A stretch of 64,000 nucleotides of DNA from Promethearchaeota archaeon (GCA_013375475.1 JABXKD010000004.1:10659-74658); one strand, 5' to 3'; shown: positions 36,219 to 39,960, counted from the first letter of the stretch. The notes: a model not told the origin generated them from the letters alone. Translations and numbers: made by a program.

Positions 36219-36290
36219 TTAAAAGTCTAAACGCTCAAAATTTGTGCCCGCGTTTTTAATTATTATCCTTCCTTTTTCTGGTTTGTTCAT
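36219..36290 (-). CDS. Candidate 23-aa peptide (paralogue B)
   Basis: Not in the track. MNKPEKGRIIIKNAGTNFERLDF*. GAGGTA (revcomp of tacctc, 36298-36303) lies exactly 7 nt upstream of the ATG. Confidence 0.4.
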   Translation of the reverse strand: MNKPEKGRIIIKNAGTNFERLDF

Positions 36291-36373
36291 TTTTCTTTAC
36301 CTCGCCTTTTTTTACTTGTTTTTATTTTATTTTTGGTCCGTTTTGTTCAAAAATTAAAATAAAAATTATTTAA

Positions 36374-36463
36374 TTAGCGTCTTAAAATTAAGGTTGCTGG
36401 ATTAGTTCCCTCAACAAAGCTTATATCTATCTTTCCTTTTCCGTTTTTATCTCTTTTTCTCAT
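36374..36463 (-). CDS. Candidate 29-aa peptide (paralogue A)
   Basis: Not in the track. MRKRDKNGKGKIDISFVEGTNPATLILRR*. The same hexamer GAGGTA (36471-36476) lies at the same 7-nt spacing. Aligns with paralogue B: KG(R/K)I(I/D)I...(A/E)GTN(F/P)..(R/T)L. Confidence 0.4.
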   Translation of the reverse strand: MRKRDKNGKGKIDISFVEGTNPATLILRR

Positions 36464-36531
36464 TTTTTTCTACCTCTTTTCTTTTATTTATTCCTGGTAT
36501 TTTTTTTTATTTTTATTTAAAAAATTGTAAT

Positions 36532-36801
36532 TTAAAAATTGATTAGGTTATTTCTATACCCTAACATTTTCGCGTCAAGGTTCGCCTTCATATCATTGAT
36601 ACATTTGACTTCCTCGGTAATTCTCGCGTTAAATTTAATGTTCTTGAATACTTTACTAAGTTTATTTTTTATTGATTGTGATTCAGCTTCTTTTATTTCA
36701 GGCTCCTGGAACAGCACCTGAGGCCTTGCTACCTCAGGTGCTTTGGTCTGGAATAGAACCTTGCTATCGATGCTGGCGCTTTTTTCCTCGGCTTGAGCCA
36801 T
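36532..36801 (-). CDS. Hypothetical 89-aa protein with internal VLFQ repeat
   Basis: ORF track. SKVLFQTKAPEVARPQVLFQEPEIKEAE. GGAAGTGA lies about 9 nt upstream of the ATG. The + strand ORFs overlapping it look like shadow frames. Coding status is uncertain because of the embedded hairpin. Confidence 0.45.
   Translation of the reverse strand: MAQAEEKSASIDSKVLFQTKAPEVARPQVLFQEPEIKEAESQSIKNKLSKVFKNIKFNARITEEVKCINDMKANLDAKMLGYRNNLINF
36713..36742. other. Perfect 11-bp inverted repeat with 8-nt loop, GC-rich
   Basis: agcacctgagg (36713-36723), loop ccttgcta, cctcaggtgct (36732-36742). Flanked by direct ctggaa(c/t)a motifs. Lies inside the 89-aa ORF. Confidence 0.7.
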
Positions 36802-36900
36802 TTTTTACATCACTTCCTTTTTTTATTTTTTTTAATTTTCTTTCTTTTTTTGGTTCTAAATAAAATTAAGAAATTCAGTTTAATATAGCTTTACTATGTA

Positions 36901-36958
36901 AAGTTCGCACGAACTTCGAACATTCGCTCGAACCAAATACTTAAATAGTTACGAACTT
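36901..36958. promoter_or_regulatory. Divergent-promoter repeat cluster: 16-bp palindrome plus repeated CGAAC / ACGAACTT motifs
   Basis: aagttcg-ca-cgaactt (36901-36916; 7-bp arms). CGAAC at 36910, 36917, 36929 and 36952. ACGAACTT at 36909-36916 and 36951-36958. A TATA-like cttaaatag (36940-36948) lies about 25-30 nt before ATG 36973. Confidence 0.45.
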
Positions 36959-36972
36959 ATTAATAATTAAAT

Positions 36973-39960
36973 ATGAGTAGTACAACAATAAAATACCCCT
37001 CAGAAGAGATTATATCTACATTTAATGTTAATAAAGATTTCGAGTACATTATACTTTGGATGCTTCATAACAATGATCGTTGCAGATGGGCTGATTTTAA
37101 AGCTAATCCTTTAAATATTAGTCAAGCTTCGTTATCTAAATATTTAAAACTGATGATAGCAAACGACCAAATCTTAAGAGAAAAAAAAGGGGAGTATAAG
37201 ATTACTCCTGAAGGGCGAAAACATTACATAGAAATACAATTAAAAGATTCTCTGACAGAACAATTGAACTACCCCCCTGAAGTCATCCTGAGAAGAAGAA
37301 ACTATGATCACATCATACTTTGGATGTTATACAATAATAATGTGTGTAAATGGTCAGATTTCTTTGAAGAGCCTCTCTCTATCAATAATTCTTCTCTCTC
37401 CAAAAATCTAGGGTTGTTAAAGGCCAGCGGATTAATAGATCACGATATTAGTTTAAAAGAATATCGAATTACAAAGAAAGGTGAGGCAAAATTCTTCAGT
37501 GTATTGAAAAGGTACGATTTGGATAGACAATCAATATTAGAGGAGGAGAGTAAAAGAATTGAGGTAATTACAGATAAAGTTAGTAAATTCTTTAGTGAAT
37601 ACGAAATTGAATCCGATGAGATAAAGTACCGGTTTTTAAATATCGTTTTAAGATTAGATTATACCCAAATAGAAAATACTTTAGCCAACGAGAACGAACT
37701 TAACAAAATTATGCTATTTTTGTCCCTTAATCACCCAGATCAATATCCTGATTATATAAGTGTCACCAATTTTTCTTTAAAATACAATATCAAACCCACG
37801 ACATTAAAATTCTTTCTTGAGAAAATTGTTAAGGAGGAAGGTTATCCTATTAAATTTTTTGAGTTAGAAGTAAGCAATGACATAACGTACTATATTCAAG
37901 CAGAAGAAAAGCTGGAGAAATTACTAAATGTTATCGTAGAGGATCATATTAGAAAATTTACATATTTGAATAAATTAAACAAAAAAGAAGGAGTAGACAA
38001 CTCAGAAATCAATGCTTTGGTTGAACTCATAGCTAATGAAATATGTACTAATGTATTTAACGAGAATTTAAAGCCATCAATGAATAAATTTCTCCCCGAA
38101 TTTATTGAAAATCTTGCGTATAAGTTTGAAAGTGAGAAGAGTTTAATCACACAAGATGATAAAACAAAAGGAGTTATTTATCAAAAGTTTCAGAATGTTT
38201 TCGAAGTAATCCAAAGTTTTGGAACTTCGGAGGCGGCGAGTTCGGCAAGTAAACCGATTGACAACGAAGCGTATTATTTCTTGCATAATAGAATATTTGA
38301 CACATTGGACATAATTTATCTCTCTAAAATCGATTTCTTCCGCATACCCGAGTTTAAGAAAGCGTATTTTTCAAAGAATTCTGGTTTTCTCTCAGCTATA
38401 GAAGAGAAGATGTCAAAAGGCAGTCTATCGAAGGCAAGCGAATTGCTTACAGATAATATTATTAACTTGAGTGACATCGAATTAATGATTTTAAGAGATA
38501 TTATCTACACAAGTAAAGGAGAGTTAGAAGATTCATTGGAGCTAACTCAAAAGATTATAGAGAAATATCCGGATGAGTATGTTGGCTACTTGTTCCAATC
38601 AGAAACGTATTTTTTGATGGGTAAATTCAAGGACGCTTTGAGCGTTGTAGAATTAGGCTTAACCAACGCCTTCGACGTCTTGTTAATAACTCAAAAAGCA
38701 CAGATTCTTATTAGTTACGATCATAGTAAAGCCGTGGAAACAATAGATGAAGTTATTGAGGACTACCCTGAGAATTTTGCCTTATTGCGTACGAAATTTT
38801 TAACTGTAATGACCGATAAAGAATGCTGCATAGGACCGATTGCTGCACCCAGAGCACTAATAGAATCGCTAATAGACGAGTATCCTGATAATTTTGAATT
38901 GAAGGTTTTGAAAGGATTGTTATATATCGTAAACCATCAATACCAAGAAGCTAAAAATTGGATTAAAGAGAGCATAAAACCAGATATTTCTGAAAATAAT
39001 CCACGAATTGACATTGCCTCATATTTAATTCGAACATACTCATATTTAGCTCGGGGAAAGTTTGAAAAAGCGTTGAAATACGTGAGAATCGCACAGTTTC
39101 ATTATCCAAATCATCCAATTTCCCATATAATGACTGGGTTGGTTCATGGATTTAATATTGTTTACAAATTTGATCCTAAGAAAGAAAACAAGGAGCTATT
39201 CAGAGAAGGATTTAAAAAAGCGATTTCGATGCAGCAAAGCGAGAAAAAATTGTCAAGATATTATCAACTGGAATGTTTAATATTAAACGAGACAGATGGG
39301 TTCGATGAGGCGGTTAATGCAATCGATAAAGCAATCGAATTAAGTCCGGAACACTTTGATATATACAACACAAAGGCTCACATATATTTAGCGCTTAAAG
39401 ACAAACAAGAGGAGGTATTCAAGTTTTACGACGAATTATATGAGAAATTTCCACACGAAGATAAGGACATTCGTAAAATGAAATCGTTTTCGCATTATTC
39501 ATTTGGAAACTTAGTAGAAGGAATTAATATTCTTGAAGAAAGTCTTGAAATATATCCGGGCTCGATAGGCATGTTAAACAACCTTGCTGTGTTTCTCAGT
39601 TATTCGGGGAGATTCGATGAAGCAATAGAAGCGATTGAAAAAGCAATTGAAATAGATCCAAATGAAGCGAACCTTTATGATACGTACGGTGAAATTTTAC
39701 TTCTTGCAAATGACTATAAAGGCGCTATAGAAAAGTTTGTTCAAGCATTAGACATGAGTCCAACGGGTTGGTTTGCATTTCATTCTTTTTTGAAACTTTC
39801 GAAAAGTTATAAAGCTCTGGGAATGATGGAGGAAGCTAGGACTTGCTACGAGAAAGCAGAGATATTAACAGAAAAAGTTCTTCCTGGAAAAAGAAAGATG
39901 TATATGGAACAATTAGATGAGATTATCGAAGAACTAGGCAAAGTACCCATACAGAAATGA
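36973..39960 (+). CDS. 995-aa protein: two N-terminal winged-helix (wHTH) modules, central helical region, C-terminal TPR array
   Basis: Duplicated module FEYIILWMLHNNDRCRWADF...LSKYLKLMIANDQILREKKGEYKITPEGRKHY / YDHIILWMLYNNNVCKWSDF...LSKNLGLLKASGLIDHDISLKEYRITKKGEAKF. Clear TPRs in the last approx 450 aa, e.g. AIEAIEKAIEIDPNEANLYDTYGEILLLANDYKGAIEKFVQALDMSP. Confidence 0.7.
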   Translation: MSSTTIKYPSEEIISTFNVNKDFEYIILWMLHNNDRCRWADFKANPLNISQASLSKYLKLMIANDQILREKKGEYKITPEGRKHYIEIQLKDSLTEQLNYPPEVILRRRNYDHIILWMLYNNNVCKWSDFFEEPLSINNSSLSKNLGLLKASGLIDHDISLKEYRITKKGEAKFFSVLKRYDLDRQSILEEESKRIEVITDKVSKFFSEYEIESDEIKYRFLNIVLRLDYTQIENTLANENELNKIMLFLSLNHPDQYPDYISVTNFSLKYNIKPTTLKFFLEKIVKEEGYPIKFFELEVSNDITYYIQAEEKLEKLLNVIVEDHIRKFTYLNKLNKKEGVDNSEINALVELIANEICTNVFNENLKPSMNKFLPEFIENLAYKFESEKSLITQDDKTKGVIYQKFQNVFEVIQSFGTSEAASSASKPIDNEAYYFLHNRIFDTLDIIYLSKIDFFRIPEFKKAYFSKNSGFLSAIEEKMSKGSLSKASELLTDNIINLSDIELMILRDIIYTSKGELEDSLELTQKIIEKYPDEYVGYLFQSETYFLMGKFKDALSVVELGLTNAFDVLLITQKAQILISYDHSKAVETIDEVIEDYPENFALLRTKFLTVMTDKECCIGPIAAPRALIESLIDEYPDNFELKVLKGLLYIVNHQYQEAKNWIKESIKPDISENNPRIDIASYLIRTYSYLARGKFEKALKYVRIAQFHYPNHPISHIMTGLVHGFNIVYKFDPKKENKELFREGFKKAISMQQSEKKLSRYYQLECLILNETDGFDEAVNAIDKAIELSPEHFDIYNTKAHIYLALKDKQEEVFKFYDELYEKFPHEDKDIRKMKSFSHYSFGNLVEGINILEESLEIYPGSIGMLNNLAVFLSYSGRFDEAIEAIEKAIEIDPNEANLYDTYGEILLLANDYKGAIEKFVQALDMSPTGWFAFHSFLKLSKSYKALGMMEEARTCYEKAEILTEKVLPGKRKMYMEQLDEIIEELGKVPIQK

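What the first reader, a model, noticed from the sequence alone, without database searches (positions are those of the whole stretch)
36219..39960. Double-wHTH/TPR protein divergent from a cluster of paralogous SD-led micro-ORFs
Seen: on the minus strand, downstream of an 89-aa ORF with a VLFQ...VLFQ internal repeat, lie two untracked ORFs of 29 and 23 aa. Each is preceded by the identical hexamer GAGGTA at exactly 7 nt. Their products align (KG[RK]I[ID]I...[AE]GTN[FP]..[RT]L). A third degenerate unit (gcgaggtga, about 36113-36121) has the SD but no ORF. The approx 500-bp region is strongly purine-rich on the coding (minus) strand. The divergent gene encodes two wHTH modules plus a long TPR array. 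Established: HTH+TPR receptors paired with adjacent small peptide genes define bacterial RRNPP quorum-sensing systems. Inference, speculative: an analogous peptide-sensing regulator module in an archaeon. However, the peptides lack signal sequences, so intracellular or RiPP-like roles, or non-coding repeats, remain possible.
Basis: partly seen in the sequence, partly recalled or inferred. Interest (0 to 1): 0.65.

Follow-up and report, generated by a model that had tools for sequence, protein, structure and literature searches.

The report
Conserved Asgard micro-genes beside wHTH-TPR regulator
Two unannotated genes of only 23 and 29 codons sit beside a large DNA-binding/TPR protein gene; the 23-codon one is kept next to that gene across Asgard archaea, pointing to an undescribed micro-protein/regulator module whose function is still untested.

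Summary
Both micro-ORFs (36374-36463 and 36219-36290, minus strand) are conserved reading frames in related genomes. Each has a Shine-Dalgarno site, a start codon and a stop codon, usually followed by a T-run.

The 23-aa family ("B", core R-x-I-I-I-x-N, usually with an aromatic C-terminus) gave 37 hits. Nearly all lie 0.4-0.8 kb upstream of, and antisense to, a wHTH-TPR gene, in Loki-, Thor-, Hermod- and Hod-type MAGs. It is under purifying selection (pN/pS 0.28-0.52).

The 29-aa family ("A") and a third family ("C") are additions confined mainly to the close Loki clade. C is decayed in this window at 36051-36120.

The 89-aa ORF is also a conserved Asgard family, always divergent from the TPR gene. 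The shared control region holds a conserved GAAGT/ACTTC palindrome between two TATA-like boxes.

None of the peptides tested is in public protein sets, and no RNA data were available.

Best reading: translated cytoplasmic micro-proteins that partner the wHTH-TPR autoregulator. This resembles RRNPP/Rgg-SHP in logic, but it is not a member, and there is no export signal. Binding and regulation are inferred, not shown.

The parts
36973..39960 (+). wHTH-TPR gene, 995 aa. Two clear winged-helix domains (about residues 23-91 and 111-181), a third winged-helix-like domain (about 215-325, read from the model), a low-confidence linker (about 386-430), and about 14 TPR-like helix pairs (about 432-988).
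   Evidence: Pfam HTH_34/HTH_45 plus many TPR families. NCBIfam Sso10a-like 48-83 and ArsR-like 116-157, both below cutoff. AF2 model with mean pLDDT 77.9. N-terminal profile versus PDB gives weak hits to the DNA-binding winged helices AspA, SloR, MarR and HxlR, E 0.007-0.07. More than 1000 homologues of about 985-1015 aa.
36802..36972 (.). Divergent control region shared by the wHTH-TPR gene and orf89.
   Evidence: Strongly conserved in close loci. Its GAAGT/ACTTC repeat core is also conserved in loci whose TPR protein is only about 40% identical.
36902..36915 (.). Palindrome AGTTCG-CA-CGAACT, the candidate operator.
   Evidence: Unique in the 64-kb window, with 0.11 expected even allowing one mismatch. 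Present once per locus in 11 close loci, always about 60 nt before the TPR start codon.
36940..36948 (+). TATA-like box CTTAAATAG, 24 nt before the TPR ATG. This implies a leaderless or near-leaderless mRNA.
   Evidence: Conserved in the alignment; coordinates. Its promoter role is inferred from general knowledge of archaeal promoter geometry.
36878..36888 (-). TATA-like box CTATATTAAAC for orf89. About 25 nt downstream lies GAACCAAAAA (36844-36856), the candidate transcription start.
   Evidence: Conserved CTATAT(A/T)A; coordinates. Role inferred.
36532..36801 (-). orf89, a small conserved Asgard protein. N-terminus MAQ/MVQV-EK, C-terminal NAKYHEEL-I-LK-LDA-YRN helix region, often an aromatic last residue.
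   Evidence: tblastn and an iterated HMM give 58 hits, all on the strand opposite the TPR gene, most within about 0.5 kb of its start. 147 database homologues; every name given is 'hypothetical protein' from Asgard MAGs. No Pfam or NCBIfam match.
36374..36463 (-). Micro-gene A, 29 aa; SD GAGGTA at 36471-36476.
   Evidence: Family HMM gives 10 hits, all in close Loki-clade loci at the same position, with consensus ..VR(L/V)VEGFNPxxL(V/I)xRF. pN/pS 0.79, a weak coding signal.
36219..36290 (-). Micro-gene B, 23 aa; SD GAGGTA at 36298-36303.
   Evidence: Family HMM gives 37 hits at E<1e-3 among 42,558 ORFs, and this is the only hit in the window. 33 of 37 have an SD and 29 of 37 a T-run of 5 or more after the stop. 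pN/pS 0.52 in the close clade and 0.28 in a distant subgroup.
36051..36120 (-). Decayed micro-gene C. The SD-like GAGGTGA at 36114-36120 is kept, the ATG is replaced by GTT, and the 3' half is lost.
   Evidence: Aligns to intact C genes (MKRKERIDNKAILNPTGYN....R[FY]) in L006, L007, L010, L011 and L015.

Best explanation
The region is one copy of an ancient Asgard gene module with four parts:
1. A large protein with N-terminal DNA-binding-type winged helices and a long TPR superhelix.
2. A divergent control region with a GAAGT/ACTTC palindromic operator between two TATA-like boxes.
3. A small protein gene (orf89) read from that control region.
4. One to three stand-alone micro-genes of 21-29 codons downstream of orf89, each with its own A-rich leader, SD, start and stop, and usually a T-run.

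Most likely the micro-genes are translated into cytoplasmic micro-proteins. Micro-gene B has a basic N-terminus, an Ile-Ile-Ile strand, an Asn/Gly turn and usually an aromatic C-terminus. I propose that these micro-proteins, and probably orf89, bind the TPR superhelix of the neighbouring protein as extended peptides. That binding would tune the protein's occupancy of the operator, and so the expression of the module itself.

Shown:
- The ORFs are conserved.
- B evolves as a protein.
- The genes stay linked to orf89 and the TPR gene while the outer flank varies.
- The operator-like sequence is conserved.

Inferred:
- Translation.
- Peptide-TPR binding.
- DNA binding by this protein at this site.
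- The direction of any regulatory effect.
For: Coding evidence:
- Frames, SD spacing, starts and stops are conserved.
- Third-codon-position variability is twice that of positions 1 and 2: 0.23/0.22/0.42 in the close clade and 0.19/0.18/0.40 in a distant subgroup. pN/pS is 0.52 and 0.28.
- Ile, Arg, Leu, Ser and Tyr codons vary synonymously while the residues stay the same.
- There is no Rfam match and no conserved RNA fold: -2.25 kcal/mol, one compensatory pair.

Linkage evidence:
- All 37 B hits are antisense to a wHTH-TPR gene, and nearly all lie upstream of one, including paralogous copies at L017:9000-9098 and L046:10486-10584.
- 31 of 36 locus hits lie within 1 kb of a detected TPR start, p about 1e-37.
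- Genes beyond the micro-genes differ between close genomes, whereas TPR, orf89 and the micro-genes stay together.

Regulator evidence:
- The winged helices resemble AspA, MarR, HxlR, ArsR and Sso10a.
- The palindrome is unique in the window and present once per close locus.
- GAAGT/ACTTC repeats between the TATA-like boxes persist across classes.

Peptide-binding plausibility:
- The long TPR superhelix resembles OGT, APC3/6/8 and Tom70, which bind extended peptides or C-terminal tails according to my general knowledge.
- orf89 of distant lineages carries an E-IIIII-P-E strand and often an aromatic C-terminus, like B.
Against: - There is no transcript, ribosome or peptide evidence. No usable RNA run exists.
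- No binding test was possible.
- Families A and C show only weak coding signatures (pN/pS 0.79 and 0.62).
- The TPR protein is unusually conserved for a local regulator, about 40% identity across classes. That would also fit a housekeeping scaffold.
- The operator could be bound by a different factor.
- Profile comparison gives no support for homology between B and orf89.
Confidence: 0.45

Rival explanations
1. Extracellular peptide signalling, i.e. a true analogue of RRNPP or Rgg/SHP quorum sensing. The micro-peptides would be exported, accumulate outside, be taken up again, and switch the wHTH-TPR receptor.
For: The architecture matches: a DNA-binding domain plus TPR receptor, with divergently encoded peptides of about 23 aa. 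In paralogous modules an MFS_3 ('transmembrane secretion effector') transporter gene follows the micro-gene on the same strand. This is seen in L017, L024, L046, L055, L063 and L047, and also in L061 and L067.
Against: The peptides are hydrophilic apart from the three Ile residues and have no signal or membrane segment (sequence). No transporter is adjacent in this window or its close clade. No peptide importer was found in the flanking genes scanned. The slow evolution of the receptor is, as I recall it, unlike the fast diversification of RRNPP pherotypes.
Confidence: 0.12
2. Structural accessory subunits. orf89 and the micro-proteins would be stoichiometric small subunits that fill and stabilise the TPR superhelix of a housekeeping scaffold, as Cdc26/Hcn1 does for APC6. 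The winged helices would serve protein or nucleic-acid scaffolding rather than gene-specific regulation.
For: The TPR protein has pan-Asgard distribution and high conservation. The best fold matches include APC/C TPR subunits and the Cut9-Hcn1 complex. The most conserved part of orf89 is its extreme N-terminus. A conserved 220-aa partner gene immediately follows the TPR gene in 37 loci.
Against: The conserved palindrome between the two core promoters suggests sequence-specific regulation. Micro-gene number varies from 1 to 3, there is a duplicated cassette, and copies decay. That is unusual for obligate subunits.
Confidence: 0.2
3. Translation-dependent sensing. The micro-ORFs would be sensor or leader ORFs whose Ile-Ile-Ile codons report Ile-tRNA charging or ribosome state. 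The act of translation, not the peptide, would be the signal.
For: The Ile triplet is invariant in family B (I9 invariant, I10 and I11 at least 90%). A strong SD is present in a genome where SDs are rare. A T-run terminator follows directly after the stop codon.
Against: No downstream gene is under its control in this clade. No alternative hairpins or conserved RNA structure exist. Residues outside the Ile run are also conserved through synonymous change, for example RYHSRYI(S/T)Y. The Ile run is absent from families A and C.
Confidence: 0.08
4. Not coding. The units would be repeated promoter/terminator or SD-like RNA elements in an A-rich spacer, and the ORFs would be incidental.
For: Nucleotide conservation is highest at the SD and start. 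Families A and C have pN/pS near 0.6-0.8. There is no expression evidence.
Against: An intact frame of 21-29 codons with an SD at canonical spacing occurs in 33 of 37 copies spanning class-level divergence. pN/pS is 0.28 with a two-fold third-position excess. No Rfam hit or conserved fold was found.
Confidence: 0.05

Closest known systems
RRNPP receptors with cognate peptides, especially Rgg/SHP and ComR/ComS of streptococci
   Same: A DNA-binding domain is fused to a TPR-type peptide-binding domain. A very short peptide gene of about 17-25 codons lies next to, and usually divergent from, the receptor gene. SHP peptides also have a basic N-terminus and an Ile-rich core (from my own knowledge).
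   Different: The DNA-binding domains are winged helices rather than XRE-type HTH. The TPR superhelix is about twice as long and gives no RRNPP fold match among the 50 best matches listed. The peptides lack the hydrophobic export segment. The host is archaeal. An extra 70-95-aa small protein sits between receptor and peptide genes. The receptor is conserved across classes rather than diversified.
TPR accessory micro-subunits of the eukaryotic APC/C (Cdc26/Hcn1 with Cdc16/Cut9; Apc13; Apc16)
   Same: Small proteins whose extended termini sit inside a long TPR superhelix. The fold search returns APC/C TPR subunits and Cut9-Hcn1 among its matches.
   Different: No sequence similarity. The protein here carries DNA-binding-type winged helices and sits at an operator-containing divergent promoter. 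The micro-genes vary in number.
Amino-acid leader peptides of bacterial attenuators (ilv, thr, his leaders)
   Same: A very short SD-led ORF with a run of identical codons (Ile x3), followed at once by a T-rich terminator.
   Different: There are no alternative RNA hairpins and no downstream biosynthetic genes. The peptide sequence outside the run is under selection.
Archaeal wHTH regulators and chromatin proteins (AspA, PadR/MarR/HxlR/ArsR, Sso10a)
   Same: The N-terminal winged helices give weak sequence matches to these. A palindromic site lies in the protein's own promoter region.
   Different: Those proteins are about 100-150 aa with a single domain. This one has two or three tandem winged helices plus about 560 residues of TPR.

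Membership tests
RRNPP (Rap/Rgg/NprR/PlcR/PrgX/AimR) | Receptor fold: a compact TPR-like peptide-binding domain homologous to Rap/PlcR/Rgg | tested here: not met
   Foldseek of the AF2 model against the PDB: the 50 best matches listed are OGT, APC/C TPR subunits, Ski3, Ctr9, TTC7 and Tom70, with no RRNPP protein among them. The array here has about 14 repeats.
RRNPP (Rap/Rgg/NprR/PlcR/PrgX/AimR) | N-terminal XRE-type HTH (or a phosphatase domain in Rap) | tested here: not met
   Pfam HTH_34/HTH_45 winged helix. PDB profile hits are to AspA, MarR and HxlR winged helices.
RRNPP (Rap/Rgg/NprR/PlcR/PrgX/AimR) | Cognate small peptide gene adjacent to the receptor gene | tested here: met
   Micro-genes lie 0.4-0.8 kb upstream on the opposite strand, and the arrangement is conserved across loci.
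RRNPP (Rap/Rgg/NprR/PlcR/PrgX/AimR) | Pro-peptide is secreted (signal peptide or hydrophobic export segment) and processed | tested here: not met
   The sequences are charged apart from the three Ile residues, and no hydrophobic stretch longer than about 4 residues is present. This was judged by eye; no signal-peptide predictor was run.
RRNPP (Rap/Rgg/NprR/PlcR/PrgX/AimR) | Mature peptide is re-imported (Opp) and binds the TPR groove, changing DNA binding | not testable with these tools
   No oligopeptide permease was found in the flanking genes scanned.
Transcription-attenuation leader peptide | Run of regulatory codons | tested here: met
   The Ile-Ile-Ile run is invariant or nearly so in family B. 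It is absent from families A and C.
Transcription-attenuation leader peptide | Mutually exclusive terminator/antiterminator hairpins and a controlled downstream operon | tested here: not met
   RNAalifold gives -2.25 kcal/mol and 8 weak pairs. Downstream genes are variable or convergent.
RiPP precursor peptides | Adjacent modifying enzymes (radical SAM, YcaO, LanM, cyclase, protease) | tested here: not met
   Pfam on flanking genes within about 9 kb on either side finds Ras GTPase, GPP34, LRR, a SAP-domain protein, MFS and alpha/beta hydrolases. None is a RiPP enzyme.
Known non-coding RNA families | Match to an Rfam covariance model, or a conserved secondary structure | tested here: not met
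   No gathering-score hits in the whole window. Only noise at E up to 10 in 35900-37000. No covarying structure.
Bona fide protein-coding micro-gene | Conserved frame, start and SD across divergent genomes, with purifying selection on the peptide | tested here: met
   Family B: (pN/pS 0.28). For families A and C the frame is conserved but selection is weak.
Bona fide protein-coding micro-gene | Direct evidence of transcription and translation | not testable with these tools
   No RNA run holds the locus. The runs laid gave only low-complexity 31-mers or DNA-like metagenome unitigs.

The most novel reading that the evidence does not exclude
This would be the first peptide-based cell-to-cell signalling system in Archaea, and it would sit in the lineage closest to eukaryotes. 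The 21-29-aa peptides would be exported, for example by the MFS_3 transporter that follows them in paralogous modules, and sensed by the pan-Asgard wHTH-TPR receptor. Several tandem peptide genes (A, B, C) would give combinatorial signals.
Probability: 0.1. Interest if true: 0.92.

Novelty: new variant of a known kind. Interest (0 to 1): 0.72.

Why it matters
Asgard archaea are the closest known relatives of eukaryotes, yet almost nothing is known about how they regulate genes or use very small proteins.

This analysis adds several things:
- It defines a module that is widespread among Asgard MAGs and contains genes of 21-29 codons that annotation pipelines skip. None of ten peptides tested is in a collection of about 15 billion proteins.
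- It links those micro-genes to a large, highly conserved winged-helix/TPR protein and to a conserved operator.
- It yields a concrete, testable pair: synthetic peptide plus TPR domain, and a DNA site.

Whichever outcome holds (intracellular micro-protein regulator, TPR accessory subunit as in the eukaryotic APC/C, or secreted signal), I found no archaeal precedent in the literature searches.

The result also shows that comparative genomics alone can rescue sub-30-codon genes in uncultured lineages.

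Tried and rejected
- **RNA evidence.** Two RNA-run searches found nothing or only same-sample runs. Laying those runs gave only poly-A-like 31-mers. 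A third search returned runs of unknown kind that behave like DNA metagenome unitigs. No conclusion about expression is possible.
- **Known RNA.** Rfam at gathering score and at E up to 10 gave nothing credible. No tRNAs were found. RNAalifold on 12 B units showed no conserved structure.
- **Database search with the B alignment.** Exact look-up of ten peptides found none in the collection.
- **Homology of B to orf89.** hhalign gave probability 0.5%. The shared Ile strand, the aromatic C-terminus and the L024 hybrid remain observations only.
- **Family-A peptides in the family-B profile search.**
- **RiPP reading.** Rejected, because no modifying enzymes were found in the flanking genes scanned.
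- **Membrane or type-I-toxin peptide.** Rejected on composition.
- **Literature.** Five full-text searches found no description of this protein family, of these micro-ORFs, or of RRNPP-like systems in archaea.
- **Metagenome scan.** It returned only 4 loci, and only one of those had any upstream sequence.

Full report
**1.

On the minus strand the window contains three ORFs:
- an 89-aa ORF at 36532-36801, with VLFQ twice;
- a 29-aa ORF at 36374-36463;
- a 23-aa ORF at 36219-36290.

Both micro-ORFs are preceded by GAGGTA, exactly 7 nt, then ATG. That pattern occurs 4 times in 64 kb against 0.32 expected, and none of 100 shuffles reaches 4.

Region 36030-36531 is 64.5% purine on the minus strand, ranking third of 635 windows. 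In this window only about 5 of 43 long ORFs have any SD-like motif near a plausible start. SD-led micro-ORFs are therefore not background.

The divergent 995-aa gene (36973-39960) has winged-helix matches (HTH_34/HTH_45, residues 27-87) and many TPR families. A weaker ArsR-like match covers residues 116-157.

**2. Organism and reach of the large protein**

The 995-aa protein has more than 1000 database relatives of nearly constant length (about 985-1015 aa). Promethearchaeota/Lokiarchaeota relatives are 59-75% identical. Sequences labelled Thor-, Hod- and Hermodarchaeota are 40-44% identical.

A scan of GTDB species genomes found 225 encoding stretches. I kept 77 loci with flanks; their labels include Odinarchaeota, and shorter paralogues are among them.

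The AF2 model has mean pLDDT 77.9. It shows:
- two winged helices (about residues 23-91 and 111-181);
- a long helix;
- a third winged-helix-like unit (about 215-325), which is my reading of the secondary-structure string;
- a low-confidence linker;
- an uninterrupted array of about 14 TPR-like helix pairs (432-988).

Foldseek returns generic long TPR superhelices (OGT, APC/C subunits, Cut9-Hcn1, Ski3, Ctr9, Tom70), and no RRNPP receptor appears among the 50 best matches listed. An N-terminal profile weakly matches DNA-binding winged helices (AspA, SloR, MarR, HxlR; E 0.007-0.07).

**3. The small genes are conserved**

*orf89.* tblastn of the window's peptides against the loci showed orf89 divergently upstream of the TPR gene in most loci. 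An iterated HMM finds 58 copies. All are on the strand opposite the TPR gene, and most lie within about 0.5 kb of its start. The family has 147 database members. Every name given is 'hypothetical protein' from Asgard MAGs, and there is no curated domain.

*Micro-genes in close Loki relatives.* Three micro-genes, not two, follow orf89:
- A: the window's 29-aa ORF, consensus ..VR(L/V)VEGFNPxxLVxRF;
- B: the 23-aa ORF, consensus ME..EKR.IIIKNAGY.P.RL(D/E)F;
- C: MKRKERIDNKAILNPTGYN....R(F/Y).

The window's 'third degenerate unit' aligns to C. It keeps the SD-like GAGGTGA (36114-36120) but has GTT in place of ATG and has lost the 3' half.

*Distribution.* A and C are confined to the close clade, with weak C-like hits in one paralogue group. 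B reaches much further. An HMM finds 37 hits at E<1e-3 among 42,558 stop-to-stop ORFs (window plus 0.82 Mb of loci). All are on the strand opposite the TPR gene. Of the 36 locus hits, 31 lie within 1 kb upstream of a detected wHTH-TPR start, which is about 4% of the search space (p about 1e-37). The exceptions are:
- two starts my regex missed;
- two hits at locus ends beside a truncated paralogue;
- one real stray, a second complete A-B-C cassette in L006 (2181-2567).

Paralogous wHTH-TPR genes carry their own orf89-like gene and their own B-type micro-gene (L017:9000-9359, L046:10486-10856).

These counts are lower bounds. Among 62 TPR starts with at least 950 nt upstream, 41 have a detected orf89 and 29 a detected B. 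Other loci show divergent SD-led micro-ORFs at the same place.

**4. Coding or not**

Evidence for family B:
- 33 of 37 copies have GAGGT/GGAGG 6-9 nt before ATG or GTG.
- Lengths are 21-29 codons, median 23.
- 29 of 37 have a T-run of 5 or more within 35 nt after the stop. I read that as an archaeal terminator signal from general knowledge.
- Codon-position variability is 0.23/0.22/0.42 with pN/pS 0.52 in the close clade.
- In the distant RLIIITN..RYHSRYI(S/T)Y subgroup it is 0.19/0.18/0.40 with pN/pS 0.28. There, Arg, Leu, Ile, Ser and Tyr codons interchange synonymously.

Families A and C keep their frames but give weak ratios of 0.79 and 0.62.

Against an RNA-level role, there is no Rfam match and no conserved RNA structure. 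None of ten peptides tested is present in the collection of about 15 billion proteins, so the family is unannotated. No RNA-seq evidence could be obtained.

I conclude that B is a real protein-coding micro-gene (confidence about 0.85). A and C are probable lineage-specific relatives, and C is decaying in this window's subclade.

**5. The control region**

The 171 bp between orf89 and the TPR gene is highly conserved. It contains:
- a TATA-like box 24 nt before the TPR ATG (36940-36948), implying a leaderless mRNA;
- an opposite TATA-like box for orf89 (36878-36888);
- between them, the palindrome AGTTCG-NN-CGAACT (36902-36915).

The palindrome is unique in the window and occurs once per locus in 11 close loci. 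In distant loci the same position carries ACTTCGCACTTCA-NN-TGAAGTTCA...CCGAAGTG. The GAAGT/ACTTC half-sites have therefore survived class-level divergence.

This is the classic layout of an autoregulated divergent promoter. That the wHTH-TPR protein is the binder is an inference.

**6. Context**

On the TPR side, close genomes share a convergent SAP/HeH-domain gene, an MFS_1 transporter and alpha/beta hydrolases. On the micro-gene side, the neighbours differ from genome to genome. The micro-genes therefore travel with orf89 and the TPR gene, not with what lies beyond.

In distant loci a conserved 220-aa gene with no Pfam match follows the TPR gene by 20-30 nt in 37 loci. In paralogous modules an MFS_3 transporter follows the micro-gene on the same strand, sometimes after a small zinc-ribbon gene of 32-69 aa.

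No RiPP enzymes or peptide importers were found in the window's flanking genes that were scanned.

**7. Mechanism**

The best-supported reading has three elements:
- The micro-genes encode cytoplasmic micro-proteins.
- Together with orf89 they bind the TPR superhelix as extended peptides. orf89 in other lineages carries an E-IIIII-P-E strand where the window has QVLFQEPE, and it often ends in an aromatic residue.
- That binding modulates a wHTH-TPR autoregulator acting at the palindrome.

I give this 0.45.

| Rival reading | Confidence |
|---|---|
| Structural TPR accessory subunits of a housekeeping scaffold | 0.20 |
| Secreted signalling peptides | 0.12 |
| Translation-dependent Ile sensing | 0.08 |
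| Non-coding elements | 0.05 |

One natural variant is suggestive. In L024 the N-terminus of orf89 (MVQVLEK) is fused directly to a B-type sequence, and no separate orf89 was detected. However, profile comparison does not support homology between B and orf89.

**8. Comparison with known systems**

In logic the module is closest to Rgg/SHP-type RRNPP pairs. Membership fails on receptor fold, on HTH type and on peptide export features. Only gene adjacency is met.

It also recalls the APC/C TPR subunits with their micro-subunits, and it superficially recalls Ile leader peptides. The latter fails on RNA structure and on the absence of a downstream operon.

Five literature searches found no description of the protein family, the micro-ORFs, or any archaeal RRNPP-like system.

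**9. Verdict**

The module is real and deeply conserved, its micro-genes are unannotated, and I found no published description of it. Its biochemical function remains to be tested.

Noticed in passing
whole window (e.g. 36940-36975): Only about 5 of 43 long ORFs have an SD-like motif near a plausible start. The TPR gene has a TATA-like box 24 nt before its ATG, which implies a leaderless mRNA. Ordinary genes here seem mostly SD-less, so the strong SDs of the micro-genes are exceptional.
   Followed up: partly
L006:2181-2567: A second complete A-B-C micro-gene cassette lies about 2 kb from the first, without orf89 or a TPR gene. The three micro-genes appear to have been copied as a unit.
   Followed up: partly
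L024:4732-4842: A hybrid ORF joins the orf89 N-terminus (MVQVLEK) directly to a B-type peptide (KSRLIIITNDTDRYHSRYIT). No separate orf89 was detected at that locus. This could be a natural deletion or an assembly artefact.
   Followed up: no
e.g. L017:5382-6044, L018:7976-8638: A conserved 220-aa protein gene with no Pfam match lies 20-30 nt after the wHTH-TPR gene on the same strand in 37 loci. It looks like an operon partner, and it is absent from the window's clade.
   Followed up: partly
L017:7250-9098; L046:8718-10584; L063:2696-4498; L047; L061; L067: In paralogous modules an MFS_3 ('transmembrane secretion effector') transporter gene follows the B micro-gene on the same strand, sometimes after a small zinc-ribbon gene of 32-69 aa.
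   Followed up: partly
window 35321-35668 and 35771-36034 (+): A 115-aa ORF and an 87-aa leucine-rich-repeat ORF look like two pieces of one gene that is intact in L015 (4191-5279, 362 aa). This may be a frameshifted or pseudogenised LRR gene, convergent on the micro-gene cluster.
   Followed up: partly
window 40010-41149 (-): A 379-aa protein has two C-terminal SAP/HeH/Ish1-like motifs and an N-terminal domain that Pfam does not assign. By eye the N-terminal domain resembles a gelsolin-type domain, but this was not tested. It is a conserved convergent neighbour of the TPR gene in about 14 loci of the close clade.
   Followed up: partly
window 30681-31994 (-), 33781-34389 (-): A Ras-family GTPase with a long C-terminal extension and a GPP34/GOLPH3-like protein. 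I take both to be eukaryote-like signature proteins typical of Asgard genomes.
   Followed up: no
window 42688-45299 (-) and 45404-46165 (+): Three tandem paralogous alpha/beta-hydrolase genes plus a fourth on the other strand lie next to an MFS_1 transporter gene (41441-42670). The block is syntenic in close relatives.
   Followed up: no
window 36219-36463: In this genome both A and B have Thr (GTN) where relatives have an aromatic residue (A: EGFNP, B: AGY.P). The codons differ (ACT versus ACA), so recent gene conversion is unlikely. It may be a parallel change, but with one case it could be coincidence.
   Followed up: no
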